Origin: Bacilli bacterium
GTDB taxonomy: Bacteria; Bacillota_I; Bacilli_A; JBKEDG01
Assembly (NCBI GenBank): GCA_047975285.1
Contig: JBKEDG010000011.1
Location: 6,777 to 70,776 of the forward strand
Reading direction: 5' to 3'
Length of the DNA stretch: 64,000 nt
This document shows, in pieces, positions 1-64,000 of the stretch. The notes beneath the pieces were generated by a model. The model worked only from the letters and a program-made list of their open reading frames with translations, did no database searches and had not been told where the DNA came from. How positions within the stretch are numbered: position 1 is the first letter of the stretch; every line of letters begins with the position of its first letter. A program made the position numbers and the translations under genes.

Positions 1-3000
1 GCGGAGTATACAACCAATAAGAATTCAACTCCAGTTGATTTTGCAGATAAAATAGCTGGTAATGGTGCTTATATGCAAGTGAATACCTCTTCATTAAATC
101 TAGCAGATGGAGAAATATTGACTTCTATTAAGGTTCATCTATCTGATATTGTTTCTGGATTTACTATTGTTGATAGTTTAAATAGAGCATCAGTACATTT
201 TAGAATATTAAATGGGGTATCAAATGCATCGATGACATCATCAATATATGATAAAAATGATAAAGAAAATACTATTCAAACAAGCAATGTAACAGTTAAG
301 GATGTAGCTAGCAGCAAAGAAACTAGTAGTAATAGTTCTGTAAAAATTACTAATAATGCAACAGTCGTTAGTAGTATAATAGCAGGAGATAGTCTTGATT
401 TTGAAGGAACTATTAAACTGCATCGTAACTTTTATGGAAATACTTTAGCGATGAATGCTCCTGAGATTTACCTTCGTGAAATGGAAGGGTTTACTCTTGG
501 GATTGATGATTTAAAGTTAAAAGATCAAAATGGAAATGATGTAGAGTATGAAGTAAAAGAACATACTGGAACTGACGGAAGTAAAATATATAAAATCATA
601 ACTACAAAAGATACCTCAATTGGTTTTTGGTTTAATGGGAGAGAAAAATATTTAAAAATATCATTGCCTATCTCAACAGATATCAAATTGACAGGAAGTT
701 ACAATAATAGAGATTTTATTGCTTTTGGAGCTAAAGGATTCAACTTTGCCCATGATTCAATAAATCAAAAGAGTTTAGTGGATTATATTGATTTTGATGG
801 AGACAAAAATACAAATGAGCGAATTAATAGTGTTATGTCCAGTGGTTTTGTAGTGTTGGAAAACAAGAATGTACTAGTAGAAACATTTTTAGCATTAGAA
901 GGAGAAGAACCAAAGGGATCATATGTAGAAGGTAATGATGAAACAGTTGCATACTTCACACCAGGAACCGACGCAAGTTATAGTGTAAATATAACAAATA
1001 ATGGAGATAGTGCAGCAAGTAAATTCAGTGCCTATGTACCAATACCAGATACTGGAGATAGTTTTGGGAAAGCCTTTCAAAGTGAACCATTTAAGTGGGA
1101 TTTAACACTAACAGATGGACTTAGTGATGTAGATGGTTTTGAAATATATTATGGAGTGGGGCTAAATGAATCAACATTCCAAGGAACAAGTAATTACTAT
1201 ACTTTATTAGACCTAATGTTAGCAGGACATACATTAGAAGATGTAAATATGGTCAAAATCGTTGGAACGGAGCCATTTGCACCAGGAGCAAGTGTAAAAA
1301 TCAAAGTACCATTAGTAGTAGATGAAACATTTGAAACAGCAACAAGTGGAGATAAGATTGGGAAGCGAAATGTCTATAACCCAGTGTATGAAGTAGAGAG
1401 TGAAACATTTGCAGGGGTACTAAATGGAACAAAAGTAGGGACAGAACTAGTTATAGCAGAAATAGGTGGACTAGTATTTATCGATAAAGATGGAGATGGA
1501 CTATATAATAGTGCTCTAGGAGATAATGTAGTAGCAGATCACGAAGTAGAGTTATATGGATTAAATGAGACAAGTGGGAAGTATGAGCCAGTCTTAGATA
1601 GTGAAGGTAAACAGTATAAGGTAAAGACAGATAAAAATGGTGTTTACTTGTTTGACTATACAACAGGACTAGGATATGGTAAGTATGGAGTAAGATTTGT
1701 AGAAACTGGAGGAGAGTATCAGTATACAGCAAATGTAAATAAGGTAGGTAGTGAAAGTATCAATAGTGATGCAATCGTAGCAAATGACATACCAAATGCA
1801 GGAGATAAGTATAGAGGATGGGTACTAGGAATAGATGCAACAAGAGAAGAAGCAAAGACAATAGGAGTCGGATTCTTAAAGTATAATCCACCAGTAGATT
1901 TAAAAGTAAACTTAACAGATGATGTTGTAAGTGTAAAAGCAGGAGAAAGTATAGTTGTAAAACCAACAATTGAGCCCGATTTCTTTGAAACAATCAAAGC
2001 AACAGATGGATATAAGTGGGAATTGGTAAATGCAAGTGATAGTACGTATGTAAGTCTATCAAACGCAACAAGTAAAAATGTAATTGTAGTTGGACAAACA
2101 ATGACTGCAAAGGATAAAATAGTAGAAGTAAAACTTACAATCAAAGATATCTATGGAACAGAGAAAAGTGATATAGTAAAAGTAAAAGTAACGCCAAATA
2201 CACCAGCAGCAGTAAGTGGAGAAGAGATTGTAACATATGTAGAAGATGCAACGAGTATTGATTACAAGGATGGGGTAAGTGCAAAAGATGCGTATGGAGA
2301 TGATATTACATTAACAGTAAGTAATATGAAGATAGATACGAGTAAGGTAGATACAAAAGAAGCAGGGACATATGAAGCAGTGTATAGTATTACAGATGCA
2401 TATGGAAATATAGCAAAGTATAGTAGAAAAGTAAAGATAAATGGAGATGTAAAACTAGTAAGTGCTAATCAAAAGTATGAGTTAGAGAATAATGATGTGC
2501 TAAGTTTAGTAAAGACAAATGCAACAGCAAGTTACTTAAAAGCAAGTGATACAGTAGGAAGTAGTGCAGAAAAAGTAAACTTAGATGTAGAAACGAATGT
2601 AAAGAGTTCAAATACAGGAGTACTAGATTTAACTAAAGCGGGAGCATATAAAGTAGAGTATAGTGCAACAAATAGCGATGGTAAGAGTGCAAGTAATGAA
2701 GTAGTAGTAAATGTAATTGATAACTATACAAGTCAAAGTGTTAACTATGCACTAAGAGCAAGATCATATAGTATAAAGTTAAGTGAAGTAGATAAGTTTA
2801 CAAAGTCAGAAGCAAAAAGTCTAGGAGAAGTGTTAGCATGGGATATGCAAACAGGAGATGACTTAACAACAGAAGTAGAACAGACAAGTTATGATAAGAT
2901 ATCGTCAGCAACAGAGTCAGGAGTCTATAAGTTAACATATAAGGTAATAAATGGGACAGAAGCATTAGAAAAAGAAGTAGTAGTACACGTATTAGGGGAA

Positions 3001-4701
3001 GATGATGTAGTGTCATCAGATAAGACAGTAGTGCTATATGCAAAAGACTATGTAATGAATTTAAAAGATGCAAGTGGATACACAAGTAGTAAGGCCATAG
3101 TAGCAAGTAAGACAAAAGCAGTAGAGTTTGAAAGTGGAAAAGACTTAGGAAGTGATAAGTTAAGCGCTGATGTAAGTAAAATAGTAAGTGCAGAAAGCGT
3201 AGGAAGTGTAGACACAAAAGTAAACTATGAAGGTAAAGTAGAAACAACAGTAAATACAAGCATAATAGATGAGAGTTATGTAGTAGGAACAAAGGATGTA
3301 ATTGGAGCAAGAAATATCGTAGTAAGTAAGTCAGACCTAGCAAGTATAAGTGATAGCGAAATTATAAAGCGGAGTGGAGTAAAAGCATGGAGAATAAATG
3401 ATGGAAGCGATGTAACTTATAGTGTAGATAAAAGTAAGGTAGGAAGTGAAGTAGGAAACTACGAAATAGAGTTTAAAACAGAAAATGGGACAAAGAAACA
3501 AATTACAGTAATAGTGTTAGATAACCCAGTATGTAATATTAGTTGTGAAAGTGTAGGAGTAAGCGAGGTACTAAGTGCAGTAAATGTCGCAGTGGAGTTA
3601 AGTGATTTAGTAAATTATGACTATGAGAGCGGGGCAAAACTAAAGGCATATAACGTAAATAATGTAGAAGAAATGAATGTAAATTATGATGCAAGTGCAG
3701 TAGAGAATAAAGCAGGAAGTTATGATTTAGTATCAAGTTCAAGAACAATAGTAACAACAACAAGAGTAACAACAGGAGATAATTTAGTAGTACAAGATGG
3801 AGTAGCAATAGCAGCATCAAATACGGAGTTTAGTTTATTTGAAGTACTAAGTTTAAAAGATAGTGATGAATTAGATAAAGAATTAAAAGAGAAGAGTAAA
3901 CCAAGAGTATGGAAAATAGCGACAAATGAAGAATTGGGAGAAGTAGAAATAGATTCATCAGTAATAGAAGTAAAAGATGTAGAAGCAGGAAGTTATGACA
4001 TAGTATATACATATGAAAGTAGTCTAAGAAGTAGTAAGAAGATAGAGACAAAATCAAAGATGAATATAGCAAGTGTAGTAGGAGAAGAGGATGCGATTTA
4101 TGCAAGAGACATAGCGCTAACAGCAGAAGAAGTAGAAAGCATCGATAAAGAGGAAGTAATAAGCCAAGCAAATATCAGAGCGTGGGAGATAGCAAATAAT
4201 AGTGATGTAGAGTATGAACTAGACATCAGCGAGTTAAAAGCAAAGCAAGGATATTATGAGATAAAGATAGAGACAGAATTAGGGACAAAACATAGTATTT
4301 ATGCATATGTAGGGAAGACAAACAGACCAGTTATGCACGTGATAGAAAATATTGTAATCTATGCAAATGATTATAGTGTAGAAGCGAAAGAATTAAAAGG
4401 GATGAGTGTCAGTGACCACGTAAAGAAATCAGAAGCATCTGTAATAACAAAGGGGACACACGAACCAGTAGAGATGTCATATGTAGATGTAGAAGGAATC
4501 AAGGCAAGTGCAGGAAAATACAATGCAGGATTTGGAGTAAAACCACAAATAAGTAGTGAGGATAAAATCTATTCAAGAGTAGTAGTAACAGTAAATGAAG
4601 AAACGGGAGAGTTATCAAAAACAGGAATAGAAACAAGCTATATAATGAGTGGATTAATCATAATTGGATTATTACTAATAAGAAAGACGGTAAGAAAATA
4701 G
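1..4701 (+). CDS. Giant cell-wall-anchored repeat surface protein (adhesin-like); 5' end lies outside the window
   Basis: Frame 1 is open from nt 1, before the first ATG at 73. It has a Cna-B/SdrD-like segment (GGLVFIDKDGDGLYN...TDKNGVYLFD). More than 10 degenerate ~85-95 aa Ig-like modules follow (e.g. VKAWRINDGSDVTYSV / IRAWEIANNSDVEYEL). The C-terminus carries LSKTG + hydrophobic helix + RKTVRK, a sortase-type sorting signal. Confidence 0.8.
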   Translation, partial: AEYTTNKNSTPVDFADKIAGNGAYMQVNTSSLNLADGEILTSIKVHLSDIVSGFTIVDSLNRASVHFRILNGVSNASMTSSIYDKNDKENTIQTSNVTVKDVASSKETSSNSSVKITNNATVVSSIIAGDSLDFEGTIKLHRNFYGNTLAMNAPEIYLREMEGFTLGIDDLKLKDQNGNDVEYEVKEHTGTDGSKIYKIITTKDTSIGFWFNGREKYLKISLPISTDIKLTGSYNNRDFIAFGAKGFNFAHDSINQKSLVDYIDFDGDKNTNERINSVMSSGFVVLENKNVLVETFLALEGEEPKGSYVEGNDETVAYFTPGTDASYSVNITNNGDSAASKFSAYVPIPDTGDSFGKAFQSEPFKWDLTLTDGLSDVDGFEIYYGVGLNESTFQGTSNYYTLLDLMLAGHTLEDVNMVKIVGTEPFAPGASVKIKVPLVVDETFETATSGDKIGKRNVYNPVYEVESETFAGVLNGTKVGTELVIAEIGGLVFIDKDGDGLYNSALGDNVVADHEVELYGLNETSGKYEPVLDSEGKQYKVKTDKNGVYLFDYTTGLGYGKYGVRFVETGGEYQYTANVNKVGSESINSDAIVANDIPNAGDKYRGWVLGIDATREEAKTIGVGFLKYNPPVDLKVNLTDDVVSVKAGESIVVKPTIEPDFFETIKATDGYKWELVNASDSTYVSLSNATSKNVIVVGQTMTAKDKIVEVKLTIKDIYGTEKSDIVKVKVTPNTPAAVSGEEIVTYVEDATSIDYKDGVSAKDAYGDDITLTVSNMKIDTSKVDTKEAGTYEAVYSITDAYGNIAKYSRKVKINGDVKLVSANQKYELENNDVLSLVKTNATASYLKASDTVGSSAEKVNLDVETNVKSSNTGVLDLTKAGAYKVEYSATNSDGKSASNEVVVNVIDNYTSQSVNYALRARSYSIKLSEVDKFTKSEAKSLGEVLAWDMQTGDDLTTEVEQTSYDKISSATESGVYKLTYKVINGTEALEKEVVVHVLGEDDVVSSDKTVVLYAKDYVMNLKDASGYTSSKAIVASKTKAVEFESGKDLGSDKLSADVSKIVSAESVGSVDTKVNYEGKVETTVNTSIIDESYVVGTKDVIGARNIVVSKSDLASISDSEIIKRSGVKAWRINDGSDVTYSVDKSKVGSEVGNYEIEFKTENGTKKQITVIVLDNPVCNISCESVGVSEVLSAVNVAVELSDLVNYDYESGAKLKAYNVNNVEEMNVNYDASAVENKAGSYDLVSSSRTIVTTTRVTTGDNLVVQDGVAIAASNTEFSLFEVLSLKDSDELDKELKEKSKPRVWKIATNEELGEVEIDSSVIEVKDVEAGSYDIVYTYESSLRSSKKIETKSKMNIASVVGEEDAIYARDIALTAEEVESIDKEEVISQANIRAWEIANNSDVEYELDISELKAKQGYYEIKIETELGTKHSIYAYVGKTNRPVMHVIENIVIYANDYSVEAKELKGMSVSDHVKKSEASVITKGTHEPVEMSYVDVEGIKASAGKYNAGFGVKPQISSEDKIYSRVVVTVNEETGELSKTGIETSYIMSGLIIIGLLLIRKTVRK

Positions 4702-5136: not shown

Positions 5137-6552
5137 ATGAAAAAAAATATAGTGGGATTATTAAGTATACTGTTGATGGTAGTAGTTTTATTACCTAAGA
5201 GTGCAGTAAATGCAAGTGGGGTAAAAAATGGTATAGGTAATACGATTTTTGAACAGTTTCCTGATCCCAATATGGCAAGTGCTGTTGCTGATGTGATTGC
5301 AAATGGTGATGTGAATGCAGTTATTGATCAGGAATTAGTTGATAACACACAGGATTTAATACTACGTGATAGTTCTATTACAGATATAACGGGGATTAGT
5401 GTATTTTCCGAACTAGATATTTTGGATTTAAGTAATAATGATTTAAAGACCTTACCAGAATCAGTTGGAGAGTTAAAGGAATTACAACTATTAACATTGT
5501 TTAATAATAATAGTTTAGCAACTTTACCAGAATCAATTGGGGAGTTGACAGAATTAAAAACTTTAAAAATAATGGGTGGAGATTTAGTAAGTGTACCAGA
5601 ATCAATTGGGAATTTAAGTGAACTAGAGGATTTACAACTGGCTAAAAACAATTTGGTGAGTATACCAGAATCAATTGGAGAGTTGAAAAAATTAAAAAAT
5701 TTACAGTTGTATGATAATAATTTGACAAGTTTACCAAGTTCAATCCTTGAGTTACCACAATTATTTAATTTGACAATATGTGGTAATTTGCTTCCAGAAA
5801 GTGCAGGGGCTCAAATAGAAGAGCAACAGAATGATTTAAATGTTAATCAAAGTTTTAATAAAAAATTAATGATTAGTAATAGTTCAGTTAAAGTTGAAGT
5901 TGGAAGTAAATCAGATTTTGAGACAATTGATTATGCTTCCATTTTAAAAATTGAGGAACAAAAAAAACAAAATGAGACAATTGAAGATTACAGTAAAGCG
6001 CTAAATAATTATGAGTATACGCTTGAATCGATTACTGATGAAGATGGAAATATTGTTGAGATAGATAGTTATTTTGATACTAGTGGTAGTGTGATTAAAG
6101 AAGGAACTGTTTTTGCTAAAGTTCGTGCAAATGGAACGGGTTTATTTGAAAATTCAAGTGAGAACGCTATAACAACTGATAAGGTAAAAATGCAATTTTC
6201 TAAACAAGTAAATAAGTATAATCTATTTTTAAATGTTATATATGATGATATTAATTATACTCATGCTTTTCCATTAGTTGCGGGAGAGTTGATAAAAAAA
6301 CCTAACGATGTAAAAAGAGACGGATATAAATTTATTGGTTGGAATACTAGTGTAGATGGTAGTGGAGTTATTTGGGATTTTGATAGTGATCTAATGCCAG
6401 CTAATGATTTGAATTTATATGCACAGTGGGAAAAAGTAGACTCTAATATAGAAACTCTTCCTAAAACTGGGTTGGGTATTAATTCTAGTATGATTTTGAT
6501 GTTTGGAGCTACTGTGTTATTAAGAAAAATGGTAAAGAAAAATAATAAGTAA
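5137..6552 (+). CDS. Leucine-rich-repeat (internalin-like) surface protein with LPKTG anchor
   Basis: ATG at 5137 is preceded by aaagggga. Signal peptide MKKNIVGLLSILLMVVVLLPKSAVNA. Seven or more 22-23 aa LRRs (L..LP.SIGEL..L..L.L..N.L). A Listeria/Bacteroides-type repeat (GYKFIGWNT..DGSG..WDFD...YAQW). C-terminal LPKTG + TM + basic tail. Confidence 0.8.
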   Translation: MKKNIVGLLSILLMVVVLLPKSAVNASGVKNGIGNTIFEQFPDPNMASAVADVIANGDVNAVIDQELVDNTQDLILRDSSITDITGISVFSELDILDLSNNDLKTLPESVGELKELQLLTLFNNNSLATLPESIGELTELKTLKIMGGDLVSVPESIGNLSELEDLQLAKNNLVSIPESIGELKKLKNLQLYDNNLTSLPSSILELPQLFNLTICGNLLPESAGAQIEEQQNDLNVNQSFNKKLMISNSSVKVEVGSKSDFETIDYASILKIEEQKKQNETIEDYSKALNNYEYTLESITDEDGNIVEIDSYFDTSGSVIKEGTVFAKVRANGTGLFENSSENAITTDKVKMQFSKQVNKYNLFLNVIYDDINYTHAFPLVAGELIKKPNDVKRDGYKFIGWNTSVDGSGVIWDFDSDLMPANDLNLYAQWEKVDSNIETLPKTGLGINSSMILMFGATVLLRKMVKKNNK

Positions 6553-43420: not shown

Positions 43421-45286
43421 ATGGACTTAAGTATGTTAAAAGGCGTTGGGGTGAAGAAAAAAGAGAGCCTTGCATTAATTGGAATAACTAGTGTTGAGCA
43501 ATTACTCCATTACTATCCATATAAAGTTAATTTTTATGATTATACTAATCTTTATGAAAAAAAAGTGATTATTAAGGTTAAAGTTGTAAATAAGTCTAAT
43601 GTTAGGTATATTAGAAATAACTTAAAGATGTTTAGTTTTAGTGGGTTGTATCAAGGCAGTGAATTGAAATTTACTGTGTTTAATCAAATTTTTTTACATA
43701 AGTATATAATAGTAGGTACAGAAGTTAGTGTTATTTGTAGTATGTTTAAAAATAATTTTACTGTTGAAAGAATTATTTTTGATAATAAAATTCCGTTTGT
43801 TGATGTTAAATATCGTAGTAAAAAAGGAATAAAAAGTGATGAAGTTAAAAGACTAATTATGCAATCCCTAATTGATTATCACTATTTGCTGGATAATTTA
43901 TTGGATAATAAATTAATGAATAAGTATAAATTATTAGATATAAAAGAAGCGGTGTATTTGATACATAAACCACTTACTGTAACAGACTACAATAATGCAG
44001 TTAGAACTTTAAAGTATTATGAAGCATATAATTTTATGTCGTTTTTAAAAGAAAATCGTACAAGTAATTTAGAATATGATTTTAGTTACGTTGAACTTGA
44101 AAATAATCGAAAGTTTGTTGATAATTTACCATACGAATTGACTATTTCTCAACAAGAAGTTGTTAATGATATCTACGATGATATCAACAGATCATTAAGG
44201 ATTAGAAGACTAATTCATGGAGATGTTGGTTGTGGTAAGACAATTATAAGTATTATTTGTGCACAAATGTTTACAGCACAATCAAGACAAGTTGCAATTT
44301 TATGTCCGACTCAAATTTTGGCTAAACAAATGTTTGAAAATTATGCTAAATATTTGGGTGGAGGATTACTATTTGATAATGGATTAAAAAAACAGGAGCG
44401 TGAATCAGCTTTGCAACAGATTGCAAATAACGAAGTTAGTTTCGTTGTTGGTACACACTCAATTTTAAATGATAATATTAAATTTTACAATTTAGCATTG
44501 ATTGTAATTGACGAACAGCATAAGTTTGGTGTTGAGCAAAGAGAAAAGCTTATAAGGAAACAGGAGGATACAAATGTAATTTTAATGAGTGCTACTCCAA
44601 TACCAAGAACAATGGGATTGGTACTATTTGACAATTTGAATTTAAGTCCGATTAAAACTTTACCAAGAAATAGAAAATCAGTGGAAACTATCTACGATGA
44701 TAAATTAACAAGTGAAATTATAACAGATATTAGAAATGAAATAATTAAAGGTAATCTTGTATATGCAGTTGCACCTATGATAGATGAAAGTGAAAATAGT
44801 AATTATAGTGTAGAAAAGATTTATGCAGAGTATACAAAATTGTTTGGTAAAAAAGATATTGGAGTGTTACATGGTAAGTTAAGTTCAGATGAACAAGAAA
44901 ATATTATTAAAGAATTTAAAGGAGGAAAAAAGAAAATATTGATTTGTACAACTATTATAGAAGTTGGTGTTGATATCCCAAATGCAAGTAGAATTTTAAT
45001 TCATGGAGCTTCTAGATTTGGACTTGCGACACTTCACCAATTACGTGGAAGAGTAGGTAGAAGTGAAATTAATGCTAAATGTTATATTATTGATAACACT
45101 TTAACAGAAAGGTTAGAAATAATTGTGAAAAGTAGGGATGGATTTGAAATTAGTGAAGCAGATTTTCAACTTCGCGGACCAGGTAATTTAGCAGGGAACG
45201 TCCAAAGTGGATACGATGGGTTTAAACTAATTGACGTTTTTTCAGATATAAATATCCTTAAAGCAGCTAAAGATGATGTTATGTAA
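43421..45286 (+). CDS. recG: ATP-dependent DNA helicase RecG
   Basis: ATG follows taggaggaag. Wedge domain plus SF2 motifs (GDVGCGKT, VIDEQHKFGV, MSATPIPRT, TTIIEVGVDIPNAS, QLRGRVGR). Confidence 0.9.
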   Translation: MDLSMLKGVGVKKKESLALIGITSVEQLLHYYPYKVNFYDYTNLYEKKVIIKVKVVNKSNVRYIRNNLKMFSFSGLYQGSELKFTVFNQIFLHKYIIVGTEVSVICSMFKNNFTVERIIFDNKIPFVDVKYRSKKGIKSDEVKRLIMQSLIDYHYLLDNLLDNKLMNKYKLLDIKEAVYLIHKPLTVTDYNNAVRTLKYYEAYNFMSFLKENRTSNLEYDFSYVELENNRKFVDNLPYELTISQQEVVNDIYDDINRSLRIRRLIHGDVGCGKTIISIICAQMFTAQSRQVAILCPTQILAKQMFENYAKYLGGGLLFDNGLKKQERESALQQIANNEVSFVVGTHSILNDNIKFYNLALIVIDEQHKFGVEQREKLIRKQEDTNVILMSATPIPRTMGLVLFDNLNLSPIKTLPRNRKSVETIYDDKLTSEIITDIRNEIIKGNLVYAVAPMIDESENSNYSVEKIYAEYTKLFGKKDIGVLHGKLSSDEQENIIKEFKGGKKKILICTTIIEVGVDIPNASRILIHGASRFGLATLHQLRGRVGRSEINAKCYIIDNTLTERLEIIVKSRDGFEISEADFQLRGPGNLAGNVQSGYDGFKLIDVFSDINILKAAKDDVM

Positions 45287-56405: not shown

Positions 56406-56708
56406 ATGAAAAAATTAGTTATGGGTTTGATTTTGCTATTTGGAATATTAAGTTTAAATGTTGATGTGTCTAACGCAGGTATTTCAAGAGGTGACTACGA
56501 TGGAGGATACTGGGTAAGAGGAGTTTCTGGAAGTTCATTACAATCAAAATATACAACTTATCGCTCTGGAAAACAAGGGGTTGCATCAACAACAGATGGA
56601 CGTGGTCAGTATGTGTCAGGTGGATGGAAAGCAAGATATAAGCAATCTAATGGTAGTCAATATACCTCTATTTGGTATGGTAACAAAATGTATTATAATT
56701 GGAAATAA
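56406..56708 (+). CDS. Lactococcin 972 family bacteriocin precursor
   Basis: 100 aa with Sec signal peptide (...VDVSNA/G). The mature part GGYWVRGVSGSSLQSKYTTYRSGKQGVASTTDGRG...GNKMYYNWK follows the Lcn972 pattern (GG.W..G...S.Y......H/Q..A.....; C-terminal YYN.W). Confidence 0.8.
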   Translation: MKKLVMGLILLFGILSLNVDVSNAGISRGDYDGGYWVRGVSGSSLQSKYTTYRSGKQGVASTTDGRGQYVSGGWKARYKQSNGSQYTSIWYGNKMYYNWK

Positions 56709-56725
56709 AATTTTACTTAATAAAT

Positions 56726-56754
56726 AAGAATCACATTTTCTGTGATTCTTATTT
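56726..56754 (+). terminator. Hairpin (attenuating terminator) directly after the bacteriocin structural gene
   Basis: Perfect 10-bp stem aagaatcaca/tgtgattctt with loop ttttc and an ATTT tail. Confidence 0.65.
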
Positions 56755-56778
56755 ACGGTATAGAGCAGGAGTTTAATC

Positions 56779-58694
56779 ATGAAAAAACTTTTGAATGTAA
56801 CATATCTTTTTTTAATGGTTGTAGTTGTAATTTCATTTTCATATATAGTTGTAGTAGCCCAAAATCAACAAAAATTACTTGCTGATCGGGAATCTGTATC
56901 CGTTGTCTTAAGCCAAAAGACAAGTGCAGATGATTTTGTTGAAGTCTTAGTTGATTATGCAGCAAAAGAAGATATTACAATTTTGAAAACATTTTACAGT
57001 AGTGATTCAACAATTATTTATTCCACAAATGATATTGAAATTAACGATTCGATTTTTAAGCGTGGTAATAAAAGCAAAGTTTTTGATATTAAAGAGGTAA
57101 ATAATGCTGGATATGATGGAGAATATTATTTATCAAGCAATTCAATTGGATTTTGTGAAAAGATCATTGAAAATAATTTTGGGACATGTGATGTAAACTC
57201 AAGAGGAGAAACTAATAATTTTGTAATATTTCTGTCGGTATTATTAATCTTACCATTGTTATTAACAACTTACATTATTTTTAATTTTATTGTTTTAATG
57301 AATAATAAAAAATATATTTTACAGCACATTGATGGAATGAGTACACATAAGATTATATGTAGATTTTATGGTGAATTATTAAAACCAATAGTAAGTCTAT
57401 TCCTTATAATCAATTTATTGATAATACTGTTTATAAATGAGTATGTGGTTTGGAAAGTTATTTTCTTTGTATTAATTATAAATATAACTTTATTTATATT
57501 TTCATATATACTTTTACACTTTAATATTCAAAAATTATATAAAACAAATTTAAATAGTGTCATCAAAAATAAAAGTGGTAAATCAGTTTTTAGCTACGTA
57601 ATAATAAAAGTAATTCTAGTTATTGTAACAGCAATTACATTAAATGTTATACTTGTTATTGCTCAAAGTAGTTATGAGAAATATTCAAAATTAGATACTT
57701 ATGAAAAACTTGATAAATATTATGGATTTGAATCTAAATATATTGGACAAGAAAGTATGAGTGAAGAAGAGCGTATTAGTTACGATAAGAATAATGCTTA
57801 TTTTTACAAGTCCCTTGATCACACTAAGACCTATGTACTTACAACAAATGACTATGATGATAGTGTAGTAGATACACCTGAGGGAAAAATGTACAATAAT
57901 ACTATCTTTGCAAATGAAAAGTACTTAAAAAACATTATGAAGATAAATACTGTCCTGTTGTAGCAAATGAATTAACAATTTATCTACCACCAAATTTGAT
58001 GTCTGAAATTGAAGATATTAAAAAAAGTATTATTTATAGTACAAAAGACGTCTTAGTTAATAAAGATATTAAATATAATTTCATTGAATATTCAGGCGGA
58101 ACTTTGCTTAGGTTAAATCCATAATTAATTGAAAAAGAAGTTAAAAATCCAATAATAATTCAAGACAATTTATTGTTTGACGATAGTTTTTACAGTACAA
58201 TTATGACAAATCAAGCAATTTATACAAAGATTATTGATGAAAAACCCTACGCTTTGCTATTACCAAGTTTACAAAAATACAACTTAGATAAACAAATAGT
58301 TGAAGTGTTTACTCCACATAATCAAGCTATAAAGACGCTAAAAACACTAAAAAATACGATATGTATTGCACTAATTGTTTTAACTATTTTAGTAATTACA
58401 TTCATATTAACAATATTAAATATAAAAAGAATAATGTTTATAAAAAAAGGGAAAGAGTATACGGTAAAATATATTTTAGGAATTTCTCCCAAAAGTATAT
58501 TTAAAAAATATTTTGTTGAAGATACTGTTTTCTTACTCATATACCTAGTAGTAGCACTTTTTACTCCTGTACCATACATTGTATCATTTATAGCGCTATT
58601 AATTCTATTAGGCATTGATATAACTATAAAAATATACGGTATAAATGCAAATTTGAAAACTAATATAAACAGTTTAATTAAGGGGGAAATATGA
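56779..58694 (+). pseudogene. Bacteriocin-associated integral membrane protein (DUF1430 / FtsX-like), disrupted by a frameshift in an A6 run and an in-frame TAA
   Basis: Frame 1 (56779..57963) must shift -1 at A_AAA_AAC (57927-57933) to continue as ...KKHYEDKYCPVVANELTIYLPP.... That frame has TAA at 58122-58124, then continues into track ORF 58173..58694. It is colinear with 17549..19513. Confidence 0.75.
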
Positions 58695-59290
58695 TAGAAG
58701 TTCAAAACATTAATAAAAGTTATGGAAGTATAAAAGTACTTGAAAATTTTTCTTTGATATTTGAAAAAACGGGGGGGGGGGTATATTTTATAAAGGTTCC
58801 AAGTGTAAAAGTTAAAACAACGTTATTAAATATTATTGGAGCAATAGAAAATGCAGATAGTGGAAAGATATTGTATGGTGGAAAGAAATATAAGAGGATG
58901 GAAGATTTTAAAAATACATCATTTGTTTTTCAAAACTTTGGTTTATTAGAGAATGAAACTGTGCTTTATAATTTTACAAAATTTAATATCCCTAATAACT
59001 ATTCAAGAATATTAGCGGCATTAAAAGATGTTGGACTTGGTAACATATTAAACAAAAAAATTTATAGTTTAAGTGGTGGCGAACAACAAAGAGTTGCGAT
59101 TGCTAAAGCTCTACTTAAGGATTCAAATATTATTCTTGCAGATGAGCCGACTGGTAATTTAGATAAAAAAAATTCAATGAATATAATTGATATTTTACGC
59201 AGTAGTTCTAGAGATAGACTAGTTATTATTGTTACTCATGACCTAGAATTAATTGATGAGTCAAAGGGAGATAAATGTATAGTTTTATAA
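58691..59290 (+). CDS. Lactococcin-972-group ABC ATP-binding protein with degenerate Walker A and an internal G11 tract
   Basis: Signature LSGGEQQR and Walker B ILADEP are intact. Walker A reads VPSVKVKTT where the paralogue has GKSGSGKTT. G11 lies at 58771-58781. Confidence 0.7.
58771..58781 (+). repeat. Homopolymeric G11 tract inside the ABC ATPase gene
   Basis: Direct count gives c-ggggggggggg-t. It is the only long G/C run noticed on reading this ~30 % GC window. Confidence 0.95.
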
Positions 59291-59724
59291 ATAAAAAAAT
59301 TATGCATATAGCAATTATAATTGTTCTTATCTTAGCGATTATATTTAGTGTGAAATATCAGATATATTACATAATTGGATCAAGTATGGAGCCAACTATA
59401 CATAAAAATAGTTTTATAATAGTAAAAGAAAATCAGCAACCTAAATATGGAGACATAATTGTTATTGATTTTGGAGATAACATGGAAAAAGAGGCGAAGA
59501 GAATTGTTGGTATTCCAGGGGACAAGATTATCTTAAGTGATTATGTTTATGTAAATGGTGTAAAATATATAAATAGTCGTTGTGATGTTGACACGTGTGT
59601 AGAACAAGAATATCAGTTGAATATAGATGAGTATTTTGTGGTCGGAGATAACTATTTAAGAAGTATCGATAGTAGAATTTTTGGTGCAATAAAATCTAAA
59701 CAGATCTTAGGAGTACATAATTAA
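59275..59724 (+). CDS. Signal peptidase I (S26 family)
   Basis: 149 aa. N-terminal TM helix, catalytic Ser box GSSMEPTI and Lys box AKRIVGIPGDKI. The start overlaps the ABC ATPase stop by 16 nt. Confidence 0.8.
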   Translation: MYSFINKKIMHIAIIIVLILAIIFSVKYQIYYIIGSSMEPTIHKNSFIIVKENQQPKYGDIIVIDFGDNMEKEAKRIVGIPGDKIILSDYVYVNGVKYINSRCDVDTCVEQEYQLNIDEYFVVGDNYLRSIDSRIFGAIKSKQILGVHN

Positions 59725-59896: not shown

Positions 59897-60553
59897 ATGA
59901 AAAAATTATTAATATTAATCTTTGTTATAAGTGTCTTATCAGGTTGTAATCAAAATGAAAAAAATGAAAGTGTTGATATTAAATACGAGGATAATAACGA
60001 AGTTACGTATAAAATTGAAAGTGATAAAGAAAATCCAGTCGCACTAATTACTTTGTCTGATGGGGAAGAGATTGCTCTTGAATTGTATCCAGAGTATGCT
60101 CCCAATACTGTTACTAATTTCATATATTTAGCTAATGAGAAGAATTATTATGATGGTTTGATATTTCACAGAGTAATTGAGGATTTTATGGTTCAAGGAG
60201 GATGTCCGTATGGTACTGGCGTAGGAAATCCTGGATATAGTATTTTAGGAGAATTTACATCCAATGGGTTTAGTCAAAATAATTTACTAAACAAAAAGGG
60301 AACTATTGCAATGGCTAGGTCTCAAGAACCAGATTCAGCAGGAGGGCAATTCTTTATAAATGTTGAAGATAATGACTATCTTGATGGAGAGTATGCTGTA
60401 TTTGGAATAGTTGTATCAGGATATGATGTTGTCTTGGATATTAGTAAAACAAAAACAAATGAAAATGACAGACCACTCAAAGAGGTAAAAATCTCAAAAA
60501 TTCGTGTAGACACTAAAGGTGTAGAGTATGGTGAGCCAGAGGTGATTAAGTAA
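59897..60553 (+). CDS. Cyclophilin-type peptidyl-prolyl isomerase lipoprotein
   Basis: Lipobox VLSGC. Motifs FHRVIEDFMVQGG, GTIAMAR and GQFFIN. Confidence 0.85.
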   Translation: MKKLLILIFVISVLSGCNQNEKNESVDIKYEDNNEVTYKIESDKENPVALITLSDGEEIALELYPEYAPNTVTNFIYLANEKNYYDGLIFHRVIEDFMVQGGCPYGTGVGNPGYSILGEFTSNGFSQNNLLNKKGTIAMARSQEPDSAGGQFFINVEDNDYLDGEYAVFGIVVSGYDVVLDISKTKTNENDRPLKEVKISKIRVDTKGVEYGEPEVIK

Positions 60554-60984: not shown

Positions 60985-61069
60985 ACATTGAACTTTTGCA
61001 AAAATAGTATTAATAAGGTACTGTCATTTTTTAAATAATATTGACAATTTTATTAATATATATATATAC

Positions 61070-61101
61070 TATAAGTTAAACTTCTTTAAAAAGTTAGGAG
61101 A
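61070..61101 (+). promoter_or_regulatory. Shared bacteriocin promoter-proximal motif, copy 3 (includes the SD)
   Basis: tataagttaaacttctttaaaaagttaggaga contains the perfect palindrome AAGTT-A-AACTT. It is preceded by an (AT)6 tract at 61056-61068 and TTGACA at 61041-61046. Confidence 0.6.
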
Positions 61102-61106
61102 TTAAG

Positions 61107-61361
61107 ATGAGGAAAATATTTATAATACCAATTTTTGCATTGCTTTTTGTAATTGCAGTTTATGGATTTCCATTTGTTTCTAGTATGCTAGGTGTAAGTA
61201 CATATGCTGCAAAAAAAATTGTAGATGCTATTTTTATTGGCGCTGGATTTTGGACAATAGTGGGATTAATTGCTGCTGGAGGAGGAGTGGCTGCGATTGG
61301 AATGGGGTTTTTACGATATATGACAAAAAGACTTGGAAGAAAAGCGACAATTGCATGGTAA
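61107..61361 (+). CDS. Circular bacteriocin precursor, circularin A/uberolysin family
   Basis: 84 aa. The C-terminal ~58 aa (LGVSTYAAKKIVDAIFIGAGFWTIVGLIAAGGGVAAIGMGFLRYMTKRLGRKATIAW) resembles uberolysin as I recall it: an AKK(I/V)VDAI helix, a Gly/Ala-rich hydrophobic core and a basic tail ending A-I-(A/I)-W. Typical maturation genes follow. Confidence 0.75.
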   Translation: MRKIFIIPIFALLFVIAVYGFPFVSSMLGVSTYAAKKIVDAIFIGAGFWTIVGLIAAGGGVAAIGMGFLRYMTKRLGRKATIAW

Positions 61362-61381
61362 TAAATTTCTTAACTAAAATT

Positions 61382-61404
61382 ATACTCAAATTGAGTATGC
61401 TTTT
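61382..61404 (+). terminator. Hairpin (leaky terminator) after the circular bacteriocin gene
   Basis: Stem atactca/tgagtat with loop aat and tail gcTTTTa. Confidence 0.5.
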
Positions 61405-61431
61405 ATACTGCTATCATTTATAGGGACAAAG

Positions 61432-62592
61432 ATGTTTTATTTAATATATATACTTAATATTACAATTATATTAGCTATTGTTGAAAAACATATTCTAGAA
61501 CAAAACAATTCATTTTTTAAAATGATAAGTTTTCTTCCTAGCAAGATGTTGATAATTGGACTTAGTAAAATTGTTATGTTTAAAGAAAAATATTATATTT
61601 TATTAATTTTTATTATTAATATAATTCTTATTTTTTATGATAGGAGTTATAGTATAAATATTCTATTAATAGTAATTATTTTATTATTTCATGCTTATTG
61701 TATAACACGCTATAAATTGTGTGATAAATTAATACTTTATAGTATTTTAATAATATATCCTGCTGCATTACACTTTTGGGGATTTAAAATAATTATTACA
61801 ATCATTTTTTTTGGTATGATAATTATAGAATATTTGTATATTGTAATAAATAGAAAATTTTCACTAATTCAATACGAACAAAATTATTATGCATACAATA
61901 ACAGTTACTCCAATAGTAGTATTATATTGTTGTTTGTTGTACTAATATTGGGTGTGGTTCAAAATAAGTTAAGGATAGAGTACTTAAATCTAGAATTGTT
62001 TTTGGGTTATTACGTAATATATAAAATATTTCAGATTGAATTACAATTTTTGGAAAGTAGTCAAAAAATTATAAAAAAACTTAGGCAAAGAGTGAATTTA
62101 TCATTATTATATAAAAAAAGGGTTTCATATAAAGTTTTTTATTTTTCAAGTCTTAAAGATATATTTCATGAGATAGTTATAATATTCTTAGTATTTGTAT
62201 TTTTTGGTATAGTTAACAATAATATATTAGGATACATTACAACAATTTTAATGTTGATAATGTACATAACATTTATTTTTGATGTTATTATTAGGCATAA
62301 TATTTTGGGAAATTCAATTGTATATGCTAATTCAGTTGTTAAAAAATTTATTGAGATAACTTTTAGTTTTATCGCTTTTATAACTATATTAACTATAGTT
62401 ATAAATAATGGAATCAAAAACATTGATACTACAATACTTAATGATCAAGCAAGAAATGGAATAAATGAATTACTAAAATACGAGCAATATTTTTATCTTT
62501 TAATCAGTTCTATGGCAATTTGTTTTAGTTTGTTATTCCTTAGTAGACTAAAGGTTAAAGATAGTGGGGTAAAATATGATAAAAATTATTAA
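61432..62592 (+). CDS. Polytopic membrane protein, candidate circular-bacteriocin maturation/export component
   Basis: 386 aa with about 10 TM helices. I recognise no soluble domain. The position is equivalent to cirB/ublB-type genes. Confidence 0.5.
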   Translation: MFYLIYILNITIILAIVEKHILEQNNSFFKMISFLPSKMLIIGLSKIVMFKEKYYILLIFIINIILIFYDRSYSINILLIVIILLFHAYCITRYKLCDKLILYSILIIYPAALHFWGFKIIITIIFFGMIIIEYLYIVINRKFSLIQYEQNYYAYNNSYSNSSIILLFVVLILGVVQNKLRIEYLNLELFLGYYVIYKIFQIELQFLESSQKIIKKLRQRVNLSLLYKKRVSYKVFYFSSLKDIFHEIVIIFLVFVFFGIVNNNILGYITTILMLIMYITFIFDVIIRHNILGNSIVYANSVVKKFIEITFSFIAFITILTIVINNGIKNIDTTILNDQARNGINELLKYEQYFYLLISSMAICFSLLFLSRLKVKDSGVKYDKNY

Positions 62593-63187
62593 TGGTAGTT
62601 TAAAAATAAAGAATAATATAATGTTAGAAGCAGTAAATGTTACTATAGAGAGTGGGAACACATATCAAGTGACTGGTAAAAACGGATCTGGGAAAACATT
62701 ATTTTTAAATTCTTTACTGGGTATAGAGAGTAAATTTAAAGGTGAAATACGAAGAAATATAAAATTATCTGATATTGTATATATTACTGATTCTCAATTT
62801 TTTTTAGACGATGAAAAAGTGAAAGATGTGTTAAAATATATAACATGGTTATATGGAGAAAGTAACATAGAAATAGATAAAATTTTAAGACTCCTTGAAT
62901 TTAATGAAAGTAAGGATAAAAAAATTAATAAACTCTCTCATGGTACAATTAGAAAACTTTGTATTATTCCTTTATTTTTTGAAAAAAAACTTTATGTGCT
63001 TGATGAAATGTTTTCAGGAATTGATAGTGATGTCCGAAAAATTATATACAATAGATTAAGAGCGATAAAATCTAATAATGCTACAATTATTTTTGTGGAA
63101 CATTCAAAGGAAATAATTACAAAAATTAGGGAAATAACAGATGTAAAGGAGATATTATGTCAAGACAAAATTATAAGAAATTCTTGA
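62576..63187 (+). CDS. ABC transporter ATP-binding protein of the circular bacteriocin cluster
   Basis: 203 aa. Walker A GKNGSGKT, signature variant LSHGTIRK and Walker B LYVLDEMFSG. Confidence 0.75.
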   Translation: MIKIINGSLKIKNNIMLEAVNVTIESGNTYQVTGKNGSGKTLFLNSLLGIESKFKGEIRRNIKLSDIVYITDSQFFLDDEKVKDVLKYITWLYGESNIEIDKILRLLEFNESKDKKINKLSHGTIRKLCIIPLFFEKKLYVLDEMFSGIDSDVRKIIYNRLRAIKSNNATIIFVEHSKEIITKIREITDVKEILCQDKIIRNS

Positions 63188-63672
63188 TAATAGGACTATT
63201 TTTGCTACTGGTTTGGGTTTCGTATATAAAAGCATCTATGTTGCTAAATTTCTATCTAGAAATATTTAAGGGTAACAAAATATTAGAATATATAAATATA
63301 GATTATTTTATTATCCTGGGATTATTTGTAACTCTTATAATTGAAATAGTTGTTATAGTAAATATAGAATCAGTATTGTTTGATATTTTTGAAATGGATT
63401 ATAAGAAAGATGTACTATATATAGCATACATAATAACAAATATCGTGTTTGTTACTATTTCAACACTATATATTTATATTAATAATGTTTCTAATTTGTT
63501 TTTTGAGTCAATATTTAAAATGATAATTATTATAATAAATCTTTTAATAATTTATAAATACTGCTTTTACAAAGAGGCTGATAGTAAAGGTAAATTAAAA
63601 GTACTAATATGTATATGTGTTCTAATGATTATAAATGCATTAATATCCGTTGGGATTTTATATGCTGTTTAA
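63157..63672 (+). CDS. Small polytopic membrane protein (ABC permease or immunity candidate)
   Basis: 171 aa with 5 predicted TM helices. It overlaps both neighbouring genes. Confidence 0.45.
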   Translation: MSRQNYKKFLIIGLFLLLVWVSYIKASMLLNFYLEIFKGNKILEYINIDYFIILGLFVTLIIEIVVIVNIESVLFDIFEMDYKKDVLYIAYIITNIVFVTISTLYIYINNVSNLFFESIFKMIIIIINLLIIYKYCFYKEADSKGKLKVLICICVLMIINALISVGILYAV

Positions 63673-64000
63673 TAGAAATAGTTTTAAAAGAGATATGTAT
63701 AATATTTTACTCACATGGATAATAAGTTTATGCATATTCAGTTTGATTTTATTATTTTTTGATAAACTACTTGTAAAAAATATATTTTTAAAAACTTCAG
63801 AAATATAGTTATCAACTATGGATATTTTTAGTAATAATTTTAAGTTTATATTTATTTATTCAATACCTTATTTAGGTGTGGCCTATTATTTTGTAACTTT
63901 CTGTTATTCTGGAATTTTATTTAACCTATATTTTGATAATAATGGATTTGAAATTGCTAAACTTGTTCATGTTCCATTTGAAATATTTGCGTTTTCAATA
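63662..64000 (+). pseudogene. SpoIIM/DUF95-like membrane protein, in-frame TAG at 63806-63808, 3' end outside the window
   Basis: ATG 63662 overlaps the preceding stop. The frame reads MLFNRN...TM1...KTSEI-TAG-LSTMDIFSNNFKFIFIYSIPYLGVAYYF.... The F..NN.....F motif after TM1 is DUF95-like. DUF95 genes are hallmarks of circular bacteriocin loci. Confidence 0.5.

What the first reader, a model, noticed from the sequence alone, without database searches (positions are those of the whole stretch)
61041..64000. Uberolysin/circularin-type circular bacteriocin locus with a long, signal-peptide-like leader
The 84-aa product of 61107..61361 ends in a ~58-aa segment with the features of head-to-tail cyclised bacteriocins of the circularin A/uberolysin family. 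These are an N-terminal amphipathic AAKKIVDAI helix, a Gly/Ala-rich hydrophobic core and a basic tail ending in Trp (RKATIAW).

The usual gene set follows it: a large polytopic membrane protein, an ABC ATPase, a small membrane protein and a SpoIIM/DUF95-like protein.

Three points are unusual:
- The ~26-aa leader (MRKIFIIPIFALLFVIAVYGFPFVSS) looks like a Sec signal or TM helix rather than the short leaders typical of this family.
- The predicted mature peptide is at the small end for the family.
- The DUF95-like gene carries an in-frame TAG.

The cluster is cut by the window end.
Basis: partly seen in the sequence, partly recalled or inferred. Interest (0 to 1): 0.72.

Follow-up and report, generated by a model that had tools for sequence, protein, structure and literature searches.

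The report
Circular bacteriocin cluster, broken maturation gene
This is a new but ordinary member of a known class of ring-shaped antibacterial peptides (closest to enterocin NKR-5-3B), and a stop codon inside the gene thought to close the ring means it may no longer be made.

Summary
ORF 61107..61361 (84 aa) scores above the curated cut-offs of both circular-bacteriocin models (PF09221 29.5/23.6 bits; TIGR03651 35.7/30.7). Its best solved relative is enterocin NKR-5-3B.

The four downstream genes are homologous or syntenic to those of five metagenomic sister clusters: a 386-aa polytopic membrane protein, an ABC ATPase, a 171-aa membrane protein and a SpoIIM/DUF95-like protein. A Logan contig identical to the window shows the cluster ends at about 64108.

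The three "unusual" points mostly dissolve:
- **Leader.** The hydrophobic leader is typical of this subfamily. NKR-5-3B has a 23-aa one, and most close relatives have 22-24 aa.
- **Size.** Alignment to the NKR-5-3B mature N-terminus puts cleavage at F23|V24, after a Pro at -2 conserved in 16 of 18 sequences. That gives a 61-aa core, the length seen in 15 of the 18 aligned sequences, so it is not small.
- **In-frame TAG.** It is real (63806..63808) and interrupts a gene that is contiguous in all six orthologues. TAG is a normal stop here, ending 11 of 40 long ORFs.

Verdict: a new member of a known kind, with function possibly lost. Interest is low to moderate.

The parts
61041..61070 (+). Promoter-like site TTGACA-18 nt-TATACT upstream of the precursor gene
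   Evidence: It matches 11 of 12 consensus positions. Such sites are not enriched over shuffles in this AT-rich DNA, so function is inferred from position only.
61107..61361 (+). Precursor gene (84 aa) of a circular bacteriocin of the circularin A/uberolysin family, enterocin NKR-5-3B subfamily
   Evidence: PF09221 29.5 bits (cut-off 23.6) and TIGR03651 35.7 bits (cut-off 30.7). Best PDB match is NKR-5-3B 2mp8, E=3.9e-6. There are 16 relatives among 1.84 billion representative proteins.
61107..61175 (+). Predicted 23-aa leader MRKIFIIPIFALLFVIAVYGFPF: hydrophobic, predicted helical, with Pro at -2
   Evidence: Alignment to the 64-aa mature NKR-5-3B chain and its 87-aa precursor. Pro at -2 in 16 of 18 sequences. 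Kyte-Doolittle hydropathy (19-aa window, residues 4-22) 2.55. AF2 helix at residues 3-20.
61176..61358 (+). Predicted 61-aa core V24..W84. Cyclic monoisotopic mass 6313.46 Da, pI 10.6, net charge about +6.
   Evidence: masses; the 61-aa core is seen in 15 of 18 aligned sequences. The alternative start M27 gives 58 aa and a cyclic mass of 6040.33 Da.
61432..62592 (+). B-slot polytopic membrane protein (386 aa, about 11 hydrophobic segments), the presumed membrane partner of the ATPase
   Evidence: phmmer against the B-slot proteins of L010, L011, L013 and L014 gave E=3e-9 to 6e-4. No Pfam or NCBIfam hit. No detectable similarity to EnkB1. Its end overlaps the ATPase start by 17 nt.
62576..63187 (+). 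ABC ATPase (203 aa) with intact Walker A (GKNGSGKT) and Walker B (LYVLDE)
   Evidence: PF00005 59.4 bits. 35% identical to EnkB3, E=1.6e-25. phmmer E=1e-40 to 1e-35 against the ATPases of L010-L014 and 4.1e-26 against L002.
63157..63672 (+). E-slot membrane protein (171 aa, 5 hydrophobic segments), a candidate immunity or accessory protein
   Evidence: It occupies the same position as in the sister clusters and overlaps the ATPase gene by the same 31 nt. hhalign against the E-slot profile gave only E=0.0025, probability 12%. No phmmer hit.
63662..63808 (+). N-terminal fragment (48 codons, first transmembrane helix) of the SpoIIM/DUF95-like C-slot gene, ending at the in-frame TAG 63806..63808
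   Evidence: The read-through product aligns end to end with intact 139-163-aa orthologues. The TAG falls at a Tyr/Pro column. The same TAG is present in the independently assembled contig L001.
63818..64000 (+). C-terminal fragment of the C-slot gene: a 96-aa ORF running to window-equivalent 64108 in L001. It carries every invariant residue of the family (F..N, P..G, H.P.E, E).
   Evidence: There is no Shine-Dalgarno sequence before ATG 63818. Three of six orthologues match PF01944 SpoIIM over their full length at 13.8-17.8 bits, below the cut-off of 26.9.

Best explanation
The locus is a five-gene biosynthetic cluster for a head-to-tail cyclised (circular) bacteriocin of the circularin A/uberolysin family. 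It belongs to a mostly metagenomic branch whose nearest characterised member is enterocin NKR-5-3B.

Proposed mechanism:
1. The 84-aa precursor is made from its own promoter.
2. Its 23-aa hydrophobic leader holds it at the membrane (inferred).
3. The dedicated machinery removes the leader after Pro-Phe (F23|V24). That machinery is the SpoIIM/DUF95-like protein together with the ABC ATPase and its 386-aa membrane partner.
4. The machinery joins V24 to W84, giving a cationic 61-residue ring (6313.46 Da monoisotopic), which is exported.
5. The 171-aa membrane protein is the likely immunity or accessory factor.

Shown here: family membership of the precursor, homology of the ATPase, B-slot and C-slot proteins to sister clusters, and the gene set. 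Inferred: the cleavage site, the role of each membrane protein, and the mechanism.

In this genome the SpoIIM/DUF95-like gene is interrupted by a genuine TAG stop after codon 48. Production therefore depends on whether the 96-aa downstream fragment is translated and sufficient. That fragment keeps all invariant residues, and its ATG lies 9 nt after the stop. I put production at roughly even odds.
For: - **Precursor.** It scores above curated cut-offs in two independent models. Its best solved relative is NKR-5-3B.
- **Relatives.** There are 16 relatives; in the 18-sequence alignment the core is 61 aa in 15, Pro is at -2 in 16 and the C-terminal residue is aromatic in all.
- **Accessory genes.** The ATPase is 35% identical to EnkB3. 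The C-slot read-through product matches six intact orthologues at E=1e-17 to 9e-11, and the B-slot protein matches four at E=3e-9 to 6e-4.
- **Synteny.** Sister clusters carry the same five genes, and the 31-nt overlap between the ATPase and E-slot genes is conserved.
- **SpoIIM link.** Three of six C-slot orthologues give SpoIIM as their only Pfam hit, over their full length. EnkB2, in the slot that the literature assigns to the DUF95 protein, itself scores only 20.6 bits.
- **Literature.** It assigns these roles and reports that all of enkB-B4 are indispensable (PMC6131525). A recent model has the DUF95 protein performing both cleavage and ligation (PMC13463998).
Against: - The C-slot gene has an in-frame TAG. 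TAG ends 11 of 40 long ORFs here, so it is a normal stop. No Shine-Dalgarno sequence precedes the downstream ATG.
- The window's C-slot protein has no Pfam SpoIIM hit, and hhalign against EnkB2-type proteins is not significant (E=0.11).
- The B- and E-slot proteins cannot be linked to EnkB1 or EnkB4 by sequence.
- The AF2 model is of moderate confidence (pLDDT 70.7) and found no circular-bacteriocin fold in the PDB.
- No product has been observed.
- The adjacent bacteriocin-type locus is clearly decayed, which suggests relaxed selection in this region.
Confidence: 0.85

Rival explanations
1. The cluster is vestigial. The family assignment is the same, but the nonsense codon in the SpoIIM/DUF95-like gene abolishes leader removal or circularisation, so no mature circular peptide is made in this strain.
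For: - The TAG interrupts a gene that is contiguous in all six orthologues.
- TAG is a normal stop in this genome, and the restart ATG has no Shine-Dalgarno sequence.
- All five enk genes are reported as indispensable (PMC6131525).
- About a quarter of mined circular-bacteriocin clusters were judged incomplete or vestigial (PMC7132975).
- The neighbouring lactococcin-972-type locus carries a frameshift, an in-frame stop and a degenerate Walker A motif.
Against: - There is only one lesion. All other genes are intact, with preserved overlaps and ATPase motifs.
- Every invariant residue of the C-slot family lies downstream of the stop, in an open 96-aa frame whose ATG is 9 nt after the TAG. Termination-reinitiation could therefore give a functional core plus a separate first-helix peptide.
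Confidence: 0.45
2. The peptide is Sec-exported and linear. The leader is a true Sec signal peptide, cut by signal peptidase I after V-S-S (S26|M27). The 58-aa peptide is secreted without cyclisation, so the DUF95-like gene is not needed.
For: - The leader has a signal-peptide layout: a basic start (MRK), a hydrophobic stretch, then Pro at -5 and small residues at -1.
- Aliphatic residues at -3 and A/G/S at -1 relative to M27 occur in 18 of 18 aligned sequences.
- A signal peptidase I gene lies 1.4 kb upstream.
Against: - NKR-5-3B shows the same -3/-1 pattern (L-T-A|N), yet its mature chain starts three residues earlier, at L1.
- The closest homologue, P0002 (60% identical), and P0008 have 10- and 7-aa leaders with no hydrophobic stretch but keep the P-x|V motif. 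The short leader of P0002 is fixed by a stop 5 codons upstream of its start. Sec targeting therefore cannot be the family's route.
- The dedicated ATPase and membrane genes are retained.
Confidence: 0.07
3. It is not a bacteriocin. The 84-aa ORF is a small two-helix membrane protein that resembles the family by hydrophobic composition only, next to an unrelated ABC transporter.
For: The peptide is very hydrophobic, and the membrane partners have no family hits.
Against: - It scores above curated cut-offs in two models.
- It has specific conserved motifs (LGxSxYAAxKxxD, G77, a C-terminal aromatic residue) shared with NKR-5-3B.
- The same five-gene context recurs in at least five unrelated genomic neighbourhoods.
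- The ATPase is closest to those of circular-bacteriocin clusters.
Confidence: 0.03

Closest known systems
Enterocin NKR-5-3B (enkB-enkB1-B2-B3-B4; Enterococcus faecium/thailandicus; PDB 2MP8)
   Same: - It is the best solved-structure sequence match (E=3.9e-6; about 35-39% identity over the core).
- The precursor has a 23-aa hydrophobic leader with Pro at -2, an N-terminal LGxSxYAAKKxxD helix, and a basic C-terminal stretch ending A-W.
- The cluster has five translationally coupled genes.
- The ATPase is 35% identical.
   Different: - The core is 61 aa rather than 64 (no VV and I insertions).
- The gene order is A-B-ATPase-E-C rather than A-B-C-ATPase-E.
- The B, C and E membrane proteins show no significant pairwise or profile similarity to EnkB1, EnkB2 and EnkB4.
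- The C gene carries a stop codon.
Uncharacterised metagenomic sister clusters (P0002/L002-L005; P0007, P0009, P0011, P0012, P0013/L010-L015)
   Same: - Cores are 48-60% identical and 61 aa long, with Pro at -2.
- The same five gene families are present, and the ATPase, B and C proteins are demonstrably homologous.
- The 31-nt overlap between the ATPase and E genes is the same.
   Different: - Their gene order is A-ATPase-E-C-B; in the window B sits directly after A.
- Their C genes are intact (139-163 aa).
- P0002 has a 10-aa non-hydrophobic leader.
- None has been characterised experimentally as far as the searched literature shows (one search found no paper containing the window peptide's sequence).
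Enterocin AS-48
   Same: It shares the Pfam/TIGR family, a long hydrophobic leader and a C-terminal ...AVIAW versus ...ATIAW here. The register of the mature N-terminus is also the same, four residues before the F/L-G motif.
   Different: The sequence match is only marginal (E=1.6). The core is 70 aa with five helices, and the cluster is larger (as-48ABCC1DD1EFGH, from PMC6131525).
Circularin A / uberolysin (namesakes of TIGR03651 and PF09221)
   Same: The precursor scores above the cut-offs of the family models named after them.
   Different: They have short leaders (3 and 6 aa, from my own knowledge and PMC6131525) and 69-70-aa cores. They were not among the 16 representative-library matches with E<=0.001.

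Membership tests
Circular bacteriocin, circularin A/uberolysin family (TIGR03651 / PF09221) | Precursor scores above the curated cut-off of the family model | tested here: met
   TIGR03651 35.7 bits against 30.7; PF09221 29.5 bits against 23.6.
Circular bacteriocin, circularin A/uberolysin family (TIGR03651 / PF09221) | Aliphatic residue at core position +1 and an aromatic C-terminal residue at the ligation site, with nothing after it | tested here: met
   V24 aligns with L1 of NKR-5-3B, and W84 is directly followed by the stop codon. The +1 column is V/A/I/L and the last column W/F/Y in 18 of 18 sequences.
Circular bacteriocin, circularin A/uberolysin family (TIGR03651 / PF09221) | Mature product is head-to-tail cyclised | not testable with these tools
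   This needs mass spectrometry. The predicted cyclic monoisotopic mass is 6313.46 Da, with 6040.33 Da as the alternative.
Circular bacteriocin, circularin A/uberolysin family (TIGR03651 / PF09221) | Compact 4-5-helix saposin-like fold | tested here: inconclusive
   The AF2 model is all-helical but has pLDDT 70.7 and pTM 0.37. Foldseek against the PDB found nothing with E<=0.001.
Circular bacteriocin biosynthetic gene cluster (criteria of PMC6131525) | ABC ATPase plus membrane protein next to the precursor gene | tested here: met
   The ATPase (PF00005 59.4 bits) is 35% identical to EnkB3. The 386-aa polytopic protein overlaps its start and is homologous to the B-slot proteins of sister clusters.
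Circular bacteriocin biosynthetic gene cluster (criteria of PMC6131525) | An intact gene for a SpoIIM/DUF95 membrane protein | tested here: not met
   A C-slot gene is present, but TAG 63806..63808 interrupts it after codon 48. All six orthologues are contiguous.
Circular bacteriocin biosynthetic gene cluster (criteria of PMC6131525) | Small, cationic, hydrophobic immunity protein | tested here: inconclusive
   The only candidate is the 171-aa E-slot protein with 5 hydrophobic segments. It has no family hit and only weak profile similarity to the E-slot proteins of sister clusters.
SpoIIM / DUF95 (PF01944), for gene 63662..64108 | Score at or above the Pfam gathering threshold (26.9 bits) | tested here: not met
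   The window protein has no hit, with or without read-through. Orthologues score 17.8, 16.6 and 13.8 bits over their full length. EnkB2 scores 20.6 bits. hhalign against EnkB2-type proteins gave E=0.11, although the F..NN, H...E and C-terminal E motifs align in register.
Enterocin NKR-5-3B subfamily (Vezina et al. 2020, PMC7132975) | Closest characterised relative is NKR-5-3B, with a shared N-terminal and C-terminal core motif | tested here: met
   No phylogeny was built.
Enterocin NKR-5-3B subfamily (Vezina et al. 2020, PMC7132975) | 64-aa core and the enkB-B1-B2-B3-B4 gene order | tested here: not met
   The core is 61 aa and the order is A-B-ATPase-E-C.
Sec-type signal peptide (for the leader) | Basic start, hydrophobic stretch and cleavage region, with small residues at -3/-1 and cleavage by signal peptidase I | tested here: inconclusive
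   The layout and the -3/-1 rule are met relative to M27. However, NKR-5-3B has the same pattern and is cleaved three residues upstream, and close relatives lack the hydrophobic stretch. No signal-peptide predictor was available.

The most novel reading that the evidence does not exclude
The split SpoIIM/DUF95-like gene still works. Ribosomes terminating at TAG 63806 would reinitiate at ATG 63818, giving a 96-aa core that carries all the invariant residues (F..N, P..G, H.P.E, E), with the 48-aa first helix supplied as a separate peptide or not needed. This would be a natural minimal version of the enzyme suspected of both removing the leader and closing the ring.

Separately, the invariant 'Pro-x|aliphatic' junction shared by leaders of 7 to 46 residues would be the first conserved recognition motif described for circular-bacteriocin leaders. 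The literature describes those leaders as lacking any motif.
Probability: 0.25. Interest if true: 0.55.

Novelty: new member of a known kind. Interest (0 to 1): 0.3.

Why it matters
Circular bacteriocins are valued as very stable antimicrobials, and how their rings are closed is still unresolved.

This locus adds a new sequence: 60% identity to its nearest relative and under 40% to any characterised peptide. It comes from a poorly sampled low-GC organism whose checked proteins, the housekeeping RecG among them, have no 90%-identical relatives.

The comparison also defines a coherent, uncharacterised branch with a constant 61-aa core, a Pro at -2 of the predicted cleavage site and highly variable leaders. 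That could guide mutagenesis of the cleavage and ligation step.

The naturally split DUF95-like gene offers a cheap experiment on which part of that protein is needed. None of this changes the current picture of the class.

Tried and rejected
- **TAG recoding or read-through.** Rejected. TAG terminates 11 of 40 ORFs of at least 200 aa, including cobalamin-biosynthesis (cbi) genes.
- **TAG as an assembly error.** Unlikely. An independently assembled Logan contig is identical over 2920 bp, although it may derive from the same reads.
- **Direct Pfam or NCBIfam assignment of the B, E and C proteins.** No hits.
- **BLASTP and hhalign of B, E and C against EnkB1, EnkB4 and EnkB2.** Not significant.
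- **Homologue searches for the C protein in 5.8 billion sequences.** The single-sequence search returned only the window's own 96-aa ORF; the profile search returned only that ORF and sister-cluster members. Neither gave a bridge to annotated SpoIIM proteins.
- **Structure route.** The AF2 model had pLDDT 70.7, and Foldseek against the PDB gave only noise.
- **Attenuator hairpin after the precursor gene.** No better than shuffles, z=-0.17. No intrinsic terminator was found in the cluster.
- **Plasmid origin.** No plasmid record covers more than 2% of the region. The window carries recG and a cbi operon, so it is chromosomal.
- **Organism identification.** Failed. The GTDB-representative scan did not recover the locus, no tRNA or rRNA lies in the window, and the source names are masked.
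- **A second precursor copy in the window.** None found.
- **Prior publication of the peptide.** No paper in the library contains its sequence strings.


Full report
**1. What is in the sequence**

A strong Shine-Dalgarno sequence (AGGAG) precedes it. So does a TTGACA-18-TATACT site at 61041..61070, matching 11 of 12 consensus positions.

Five further ORFs follow on the same strand:
- 61432..62592: 386 aa, about 11 hydrophobic segments.
- 62576..63187: 203 aa.
- 63157..63672: 171 aa, 5 hydrophobic segments.
- 63662..63808: 48 aa, ending in TAG.
- An open frame from ATG 63818, in the same frame and 9 nt after that TAG, running off the window.

A 5643-bp Logan contig (L001) is 100% identical to window 61081..64000. 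It shows that the last frame ends at window-equivalent 64108 (96 aa). An SNF-family symporter follows, so the cluster has no further genes.

**2. Is the precursor a circular bacteriocin?**

It passes the curated cut-offs of both dedicated models. PF09221 gives 29.5 bits against 23.6, over residues 26-84. TIGR03651 gives 35.7 bits against 30.7, over residues 24-84.

Against all PDB sequences the best match is enterocin NKR-5-3B (2mp8, E=3.9e-6). AS-48 is a marginal second.

An exhaustive HMMER scan of 1.84 billion representative proteins with the core found only 16 relatives at E<=0.001. The word-indexed 5.8-billion-sequence database held one non-self relative, P0002, at 60% identity. The family assignment is therefore solid and the peptide is rare. 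No paper in the library contains its sequence.

**3. Leader and cleavage site**

The genome scan recovered the NKR-5-3B locus of Enterococcus thailandicus (L006) and a Sporolactobacillus relative (L007). The NKR-5-3B precursor is 87 aa and the solved mature chain is 64 aa. Its leader is therefore the 23-aa hydrophobic MKKNLLLVLPIVGIVGLFVGAPM, and the mature N-terminus is L of LTANLG.

In an 18-sequence alignment this site corresponds to F23|V24 in the window peptide. Several columns are well conserved:
- The -2 residue is Pro in 16 of 18 sequences.
- The -1 residue is variable and often polar or charged.
- The +1 residue is V, A, I or L in 18 of 18.
- The last residue is W, F or Y in 18 of 18.

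With this site the core is exactly 61 aa in 15 of the 18 sequences, while leaders range from 7 to 46 aa. Ten of the other 17 have the window's 22-24-aa M-K/R-K-hydrophobic design.

The review literature gives 2-48 aa as the leader range. It places AS-48, amylocyclicin, pumilarin and NKR-5-3B in a long-leader group (PMC6131525). The leader is therefore typical for this branch, not unusual. A 61-aa core lies inside the known 58-70-aa range.

The alternative site, S26|M27 (58 aa), fits the signal-peptidase -3/-1 rule in 18 of 18 sequences. NKR-5-3B fits it too, yet is cleaved three residues earlier. The closest homologues, P0002 and P0008, have leaders of 10 and 7 aa with no hydrophobic stretch. 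The P0002 start is fixed by a stop five codons upstream and a good Shine-Dalgarno sequence. I therefore favour F23|V24 at about 2:1.

Predicted cyclic monoisotopic masses are 6313.46 Da for the 61-mer and 6040.33 Da for the 58-mer.

**4. The accessory genes**

Six related clusters were examined:
- Five further loci (L010-L014) carry the order precursor, ABC ATPase (207-234 aa), E protein (174-184 aa), C protein (157-163 aa), B protein (367-393 aa).
- The P0002 locus, L002, has the same order but shorter E and C (151 and 139 aa), a longer B (522 aa) and an added ABC/FtsX pair.

Within this set the window's proteins compare as follows:
- **ATPase.** It matches theirs at E=1e-40 to 1e-26 and EnkB3 at 35% identity.
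- **386-aa protein.** It matches four B proteins at E=3e-9 to 6e-4.
- **TAG read-through product.** It matches six C proteins at E=1e-17 to 9e-11.
- **171-aa protein.** It has only weak profile similarity to the E proteins (hhalign E=0.0025). It does sit in the same place and overlaps the ATPase gene by the same 31 nt.

The gene set is therefore the expected one. The window differs in that B has moved to directly after the precursor.

None of B, C or E could be linked by sequence to EnkB1, EnkB2 or EnkB4. This is consistent with the low homology among such genes noted in PMC6131525.

**5. Is the last gene DUF95/SpoIIM?**

The window protein has no Pfam hit. Three of its six intact orthologues hit SpoIIM as their only family. 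The hits run end to end (profile positions 5-162 of 163) but score 13.8-17.8 bits, below the 26.9-bit threshold. EnkB2, which occupies the DUF95 slot of the characterised NKR-5-3B cluster, itself reaches only 20.6 bits.

The family's invariant residues are F56, N59, P69, G72, H103, P105, E107 and E144. They align in register with the IFxNN, HxxxE and C-terminal IEG motifs of the EnkB2-type proteins, but without statistical significance. Two database searches found no bridging homologues. I call it SpoIIM-like by position, size, motifs and sub-threshold hits. Membership is not proven.

**6. The TAG**

The TAG aligns with a Tyr/Pro column of orthologues that are all contiguous across it. TAG terminates 11 of 40 long ORFs in the window, so recoding is not credible.

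The downstream ATG lacks a Shine-Dalgarno sequence. It lies 9 nt after the stop, however, and all invariant residues are downstream of it. Termination-reinitiation could therefore yield a functional core; this is inference.

The literature reports all five enk genes as indispensable (PMC6131525). A 2026 model has the DUF95 protein doing both cleavage and ligation (PMC13463998). About a quarter of mined clusters look incomplete or vestigial (PMC7132975).

The neighbouring lactococcin-972-type locus is plainly decayed. I put production by the native strain at roughly even odds.

**7. Context**

The window is chromosomal, carrying recG and a cbi operon. It has 28.7% G+C and no plasmid relatives.

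The four window proteins found in the collection, including RecG and the prolyl isomerase, have no 90%-identical relatives among 15 billion proteins. The organism could not be named.

**8. Verdict**

The claimed oddities of leader and size are normal for the NKR-5-3B branch. The stop codon is real and is the one feature of consequence.

This is a new member of a known kind. Two modest extras are a conserved Pro-x|aliphatic junction with a fixed 61-aa core, and a naturally split DUF95-like gene that could be exploited experimentally.

Noticed in passing
window 56406..59290: A second, decayed bacteriocin-type locus of the lactococcin-972 kind.
- A 100-aa ORF (56406..56708) has a Sec-like signal peptide and a Gly/Tyr/Ser-rich body with a GGxW motif, ending YYNWK. 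It has no HMM hit.
- A gene resembling the 'bacteriocin-associated integral membrane protein' family is broken by a frameshift near 57960 and an in-frame TAA near 58122.
- An ABC ATPase (58691..59290; TIGR03608 177 bits, below the cut-off of 254.85) has a degenerate Walker A motif (VPSVKVKTT).
   Followed up: partly
window 59275..59724: A signal peptidase I gene overlaps the end of the lactococcin-972-type ABC ATPase gene by 16 nt. It lies 1.4 kb upstream of the circular-bacteriocin precursor. It probably belongs to the upstream locus rather than to the circular-bacteriocin cluster.
   Followed up: no
L012 5696..5950 and 6001..6255: A sister cluster from a JGI metagenome (687-kb contig) carries two tandem 84-aa precursor genes ahead of a single set of accessory genes.
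   Followed up: no
Alignment A9 (window 61107..61361 and 17 relatives): With the NKR-5-3B-type cleavage site the core is exactly 61 aa in 15 of the 18 sequences, while the leader varies from 7 to 46 aa. Pro occupies -2 in 16 of 18. This looks like a conserved leader-junction motif in a class said to lack leader motifs.
   Followed up: partly
window 43421..45286, 59897..60553 and the cluster genes: RecG, the lipoprotein prolyl isomerase and the cluster's ATPase and B protein are all singletons at 90% identity among about 15 billion proteins (sources NCBI and Logan only). The host is a very sparsely sampled low-GC lineage and could not be named.
   Followed up: partly
window 73..4701: A 1542-aa ORF has no NCBIfam match at E<=0.001.
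   Followed up: no
L008 4725..4796: A Methanomethylophilaceae archaeon MAG contig has a 24-residue stretch 63% identical to the core's central region. This could be chance or a fragment.
   Followed up: no
L002 5390..7061; L011, L013 and L014 upstream of the precursor: Several sister clusters are flanked by an extra ABC ATPase plus an FtsX/MacB-type permease, reminiscent of the accessory as-48EFGH immunity transporter. The window has no intact equivalent.
   Followed up: no
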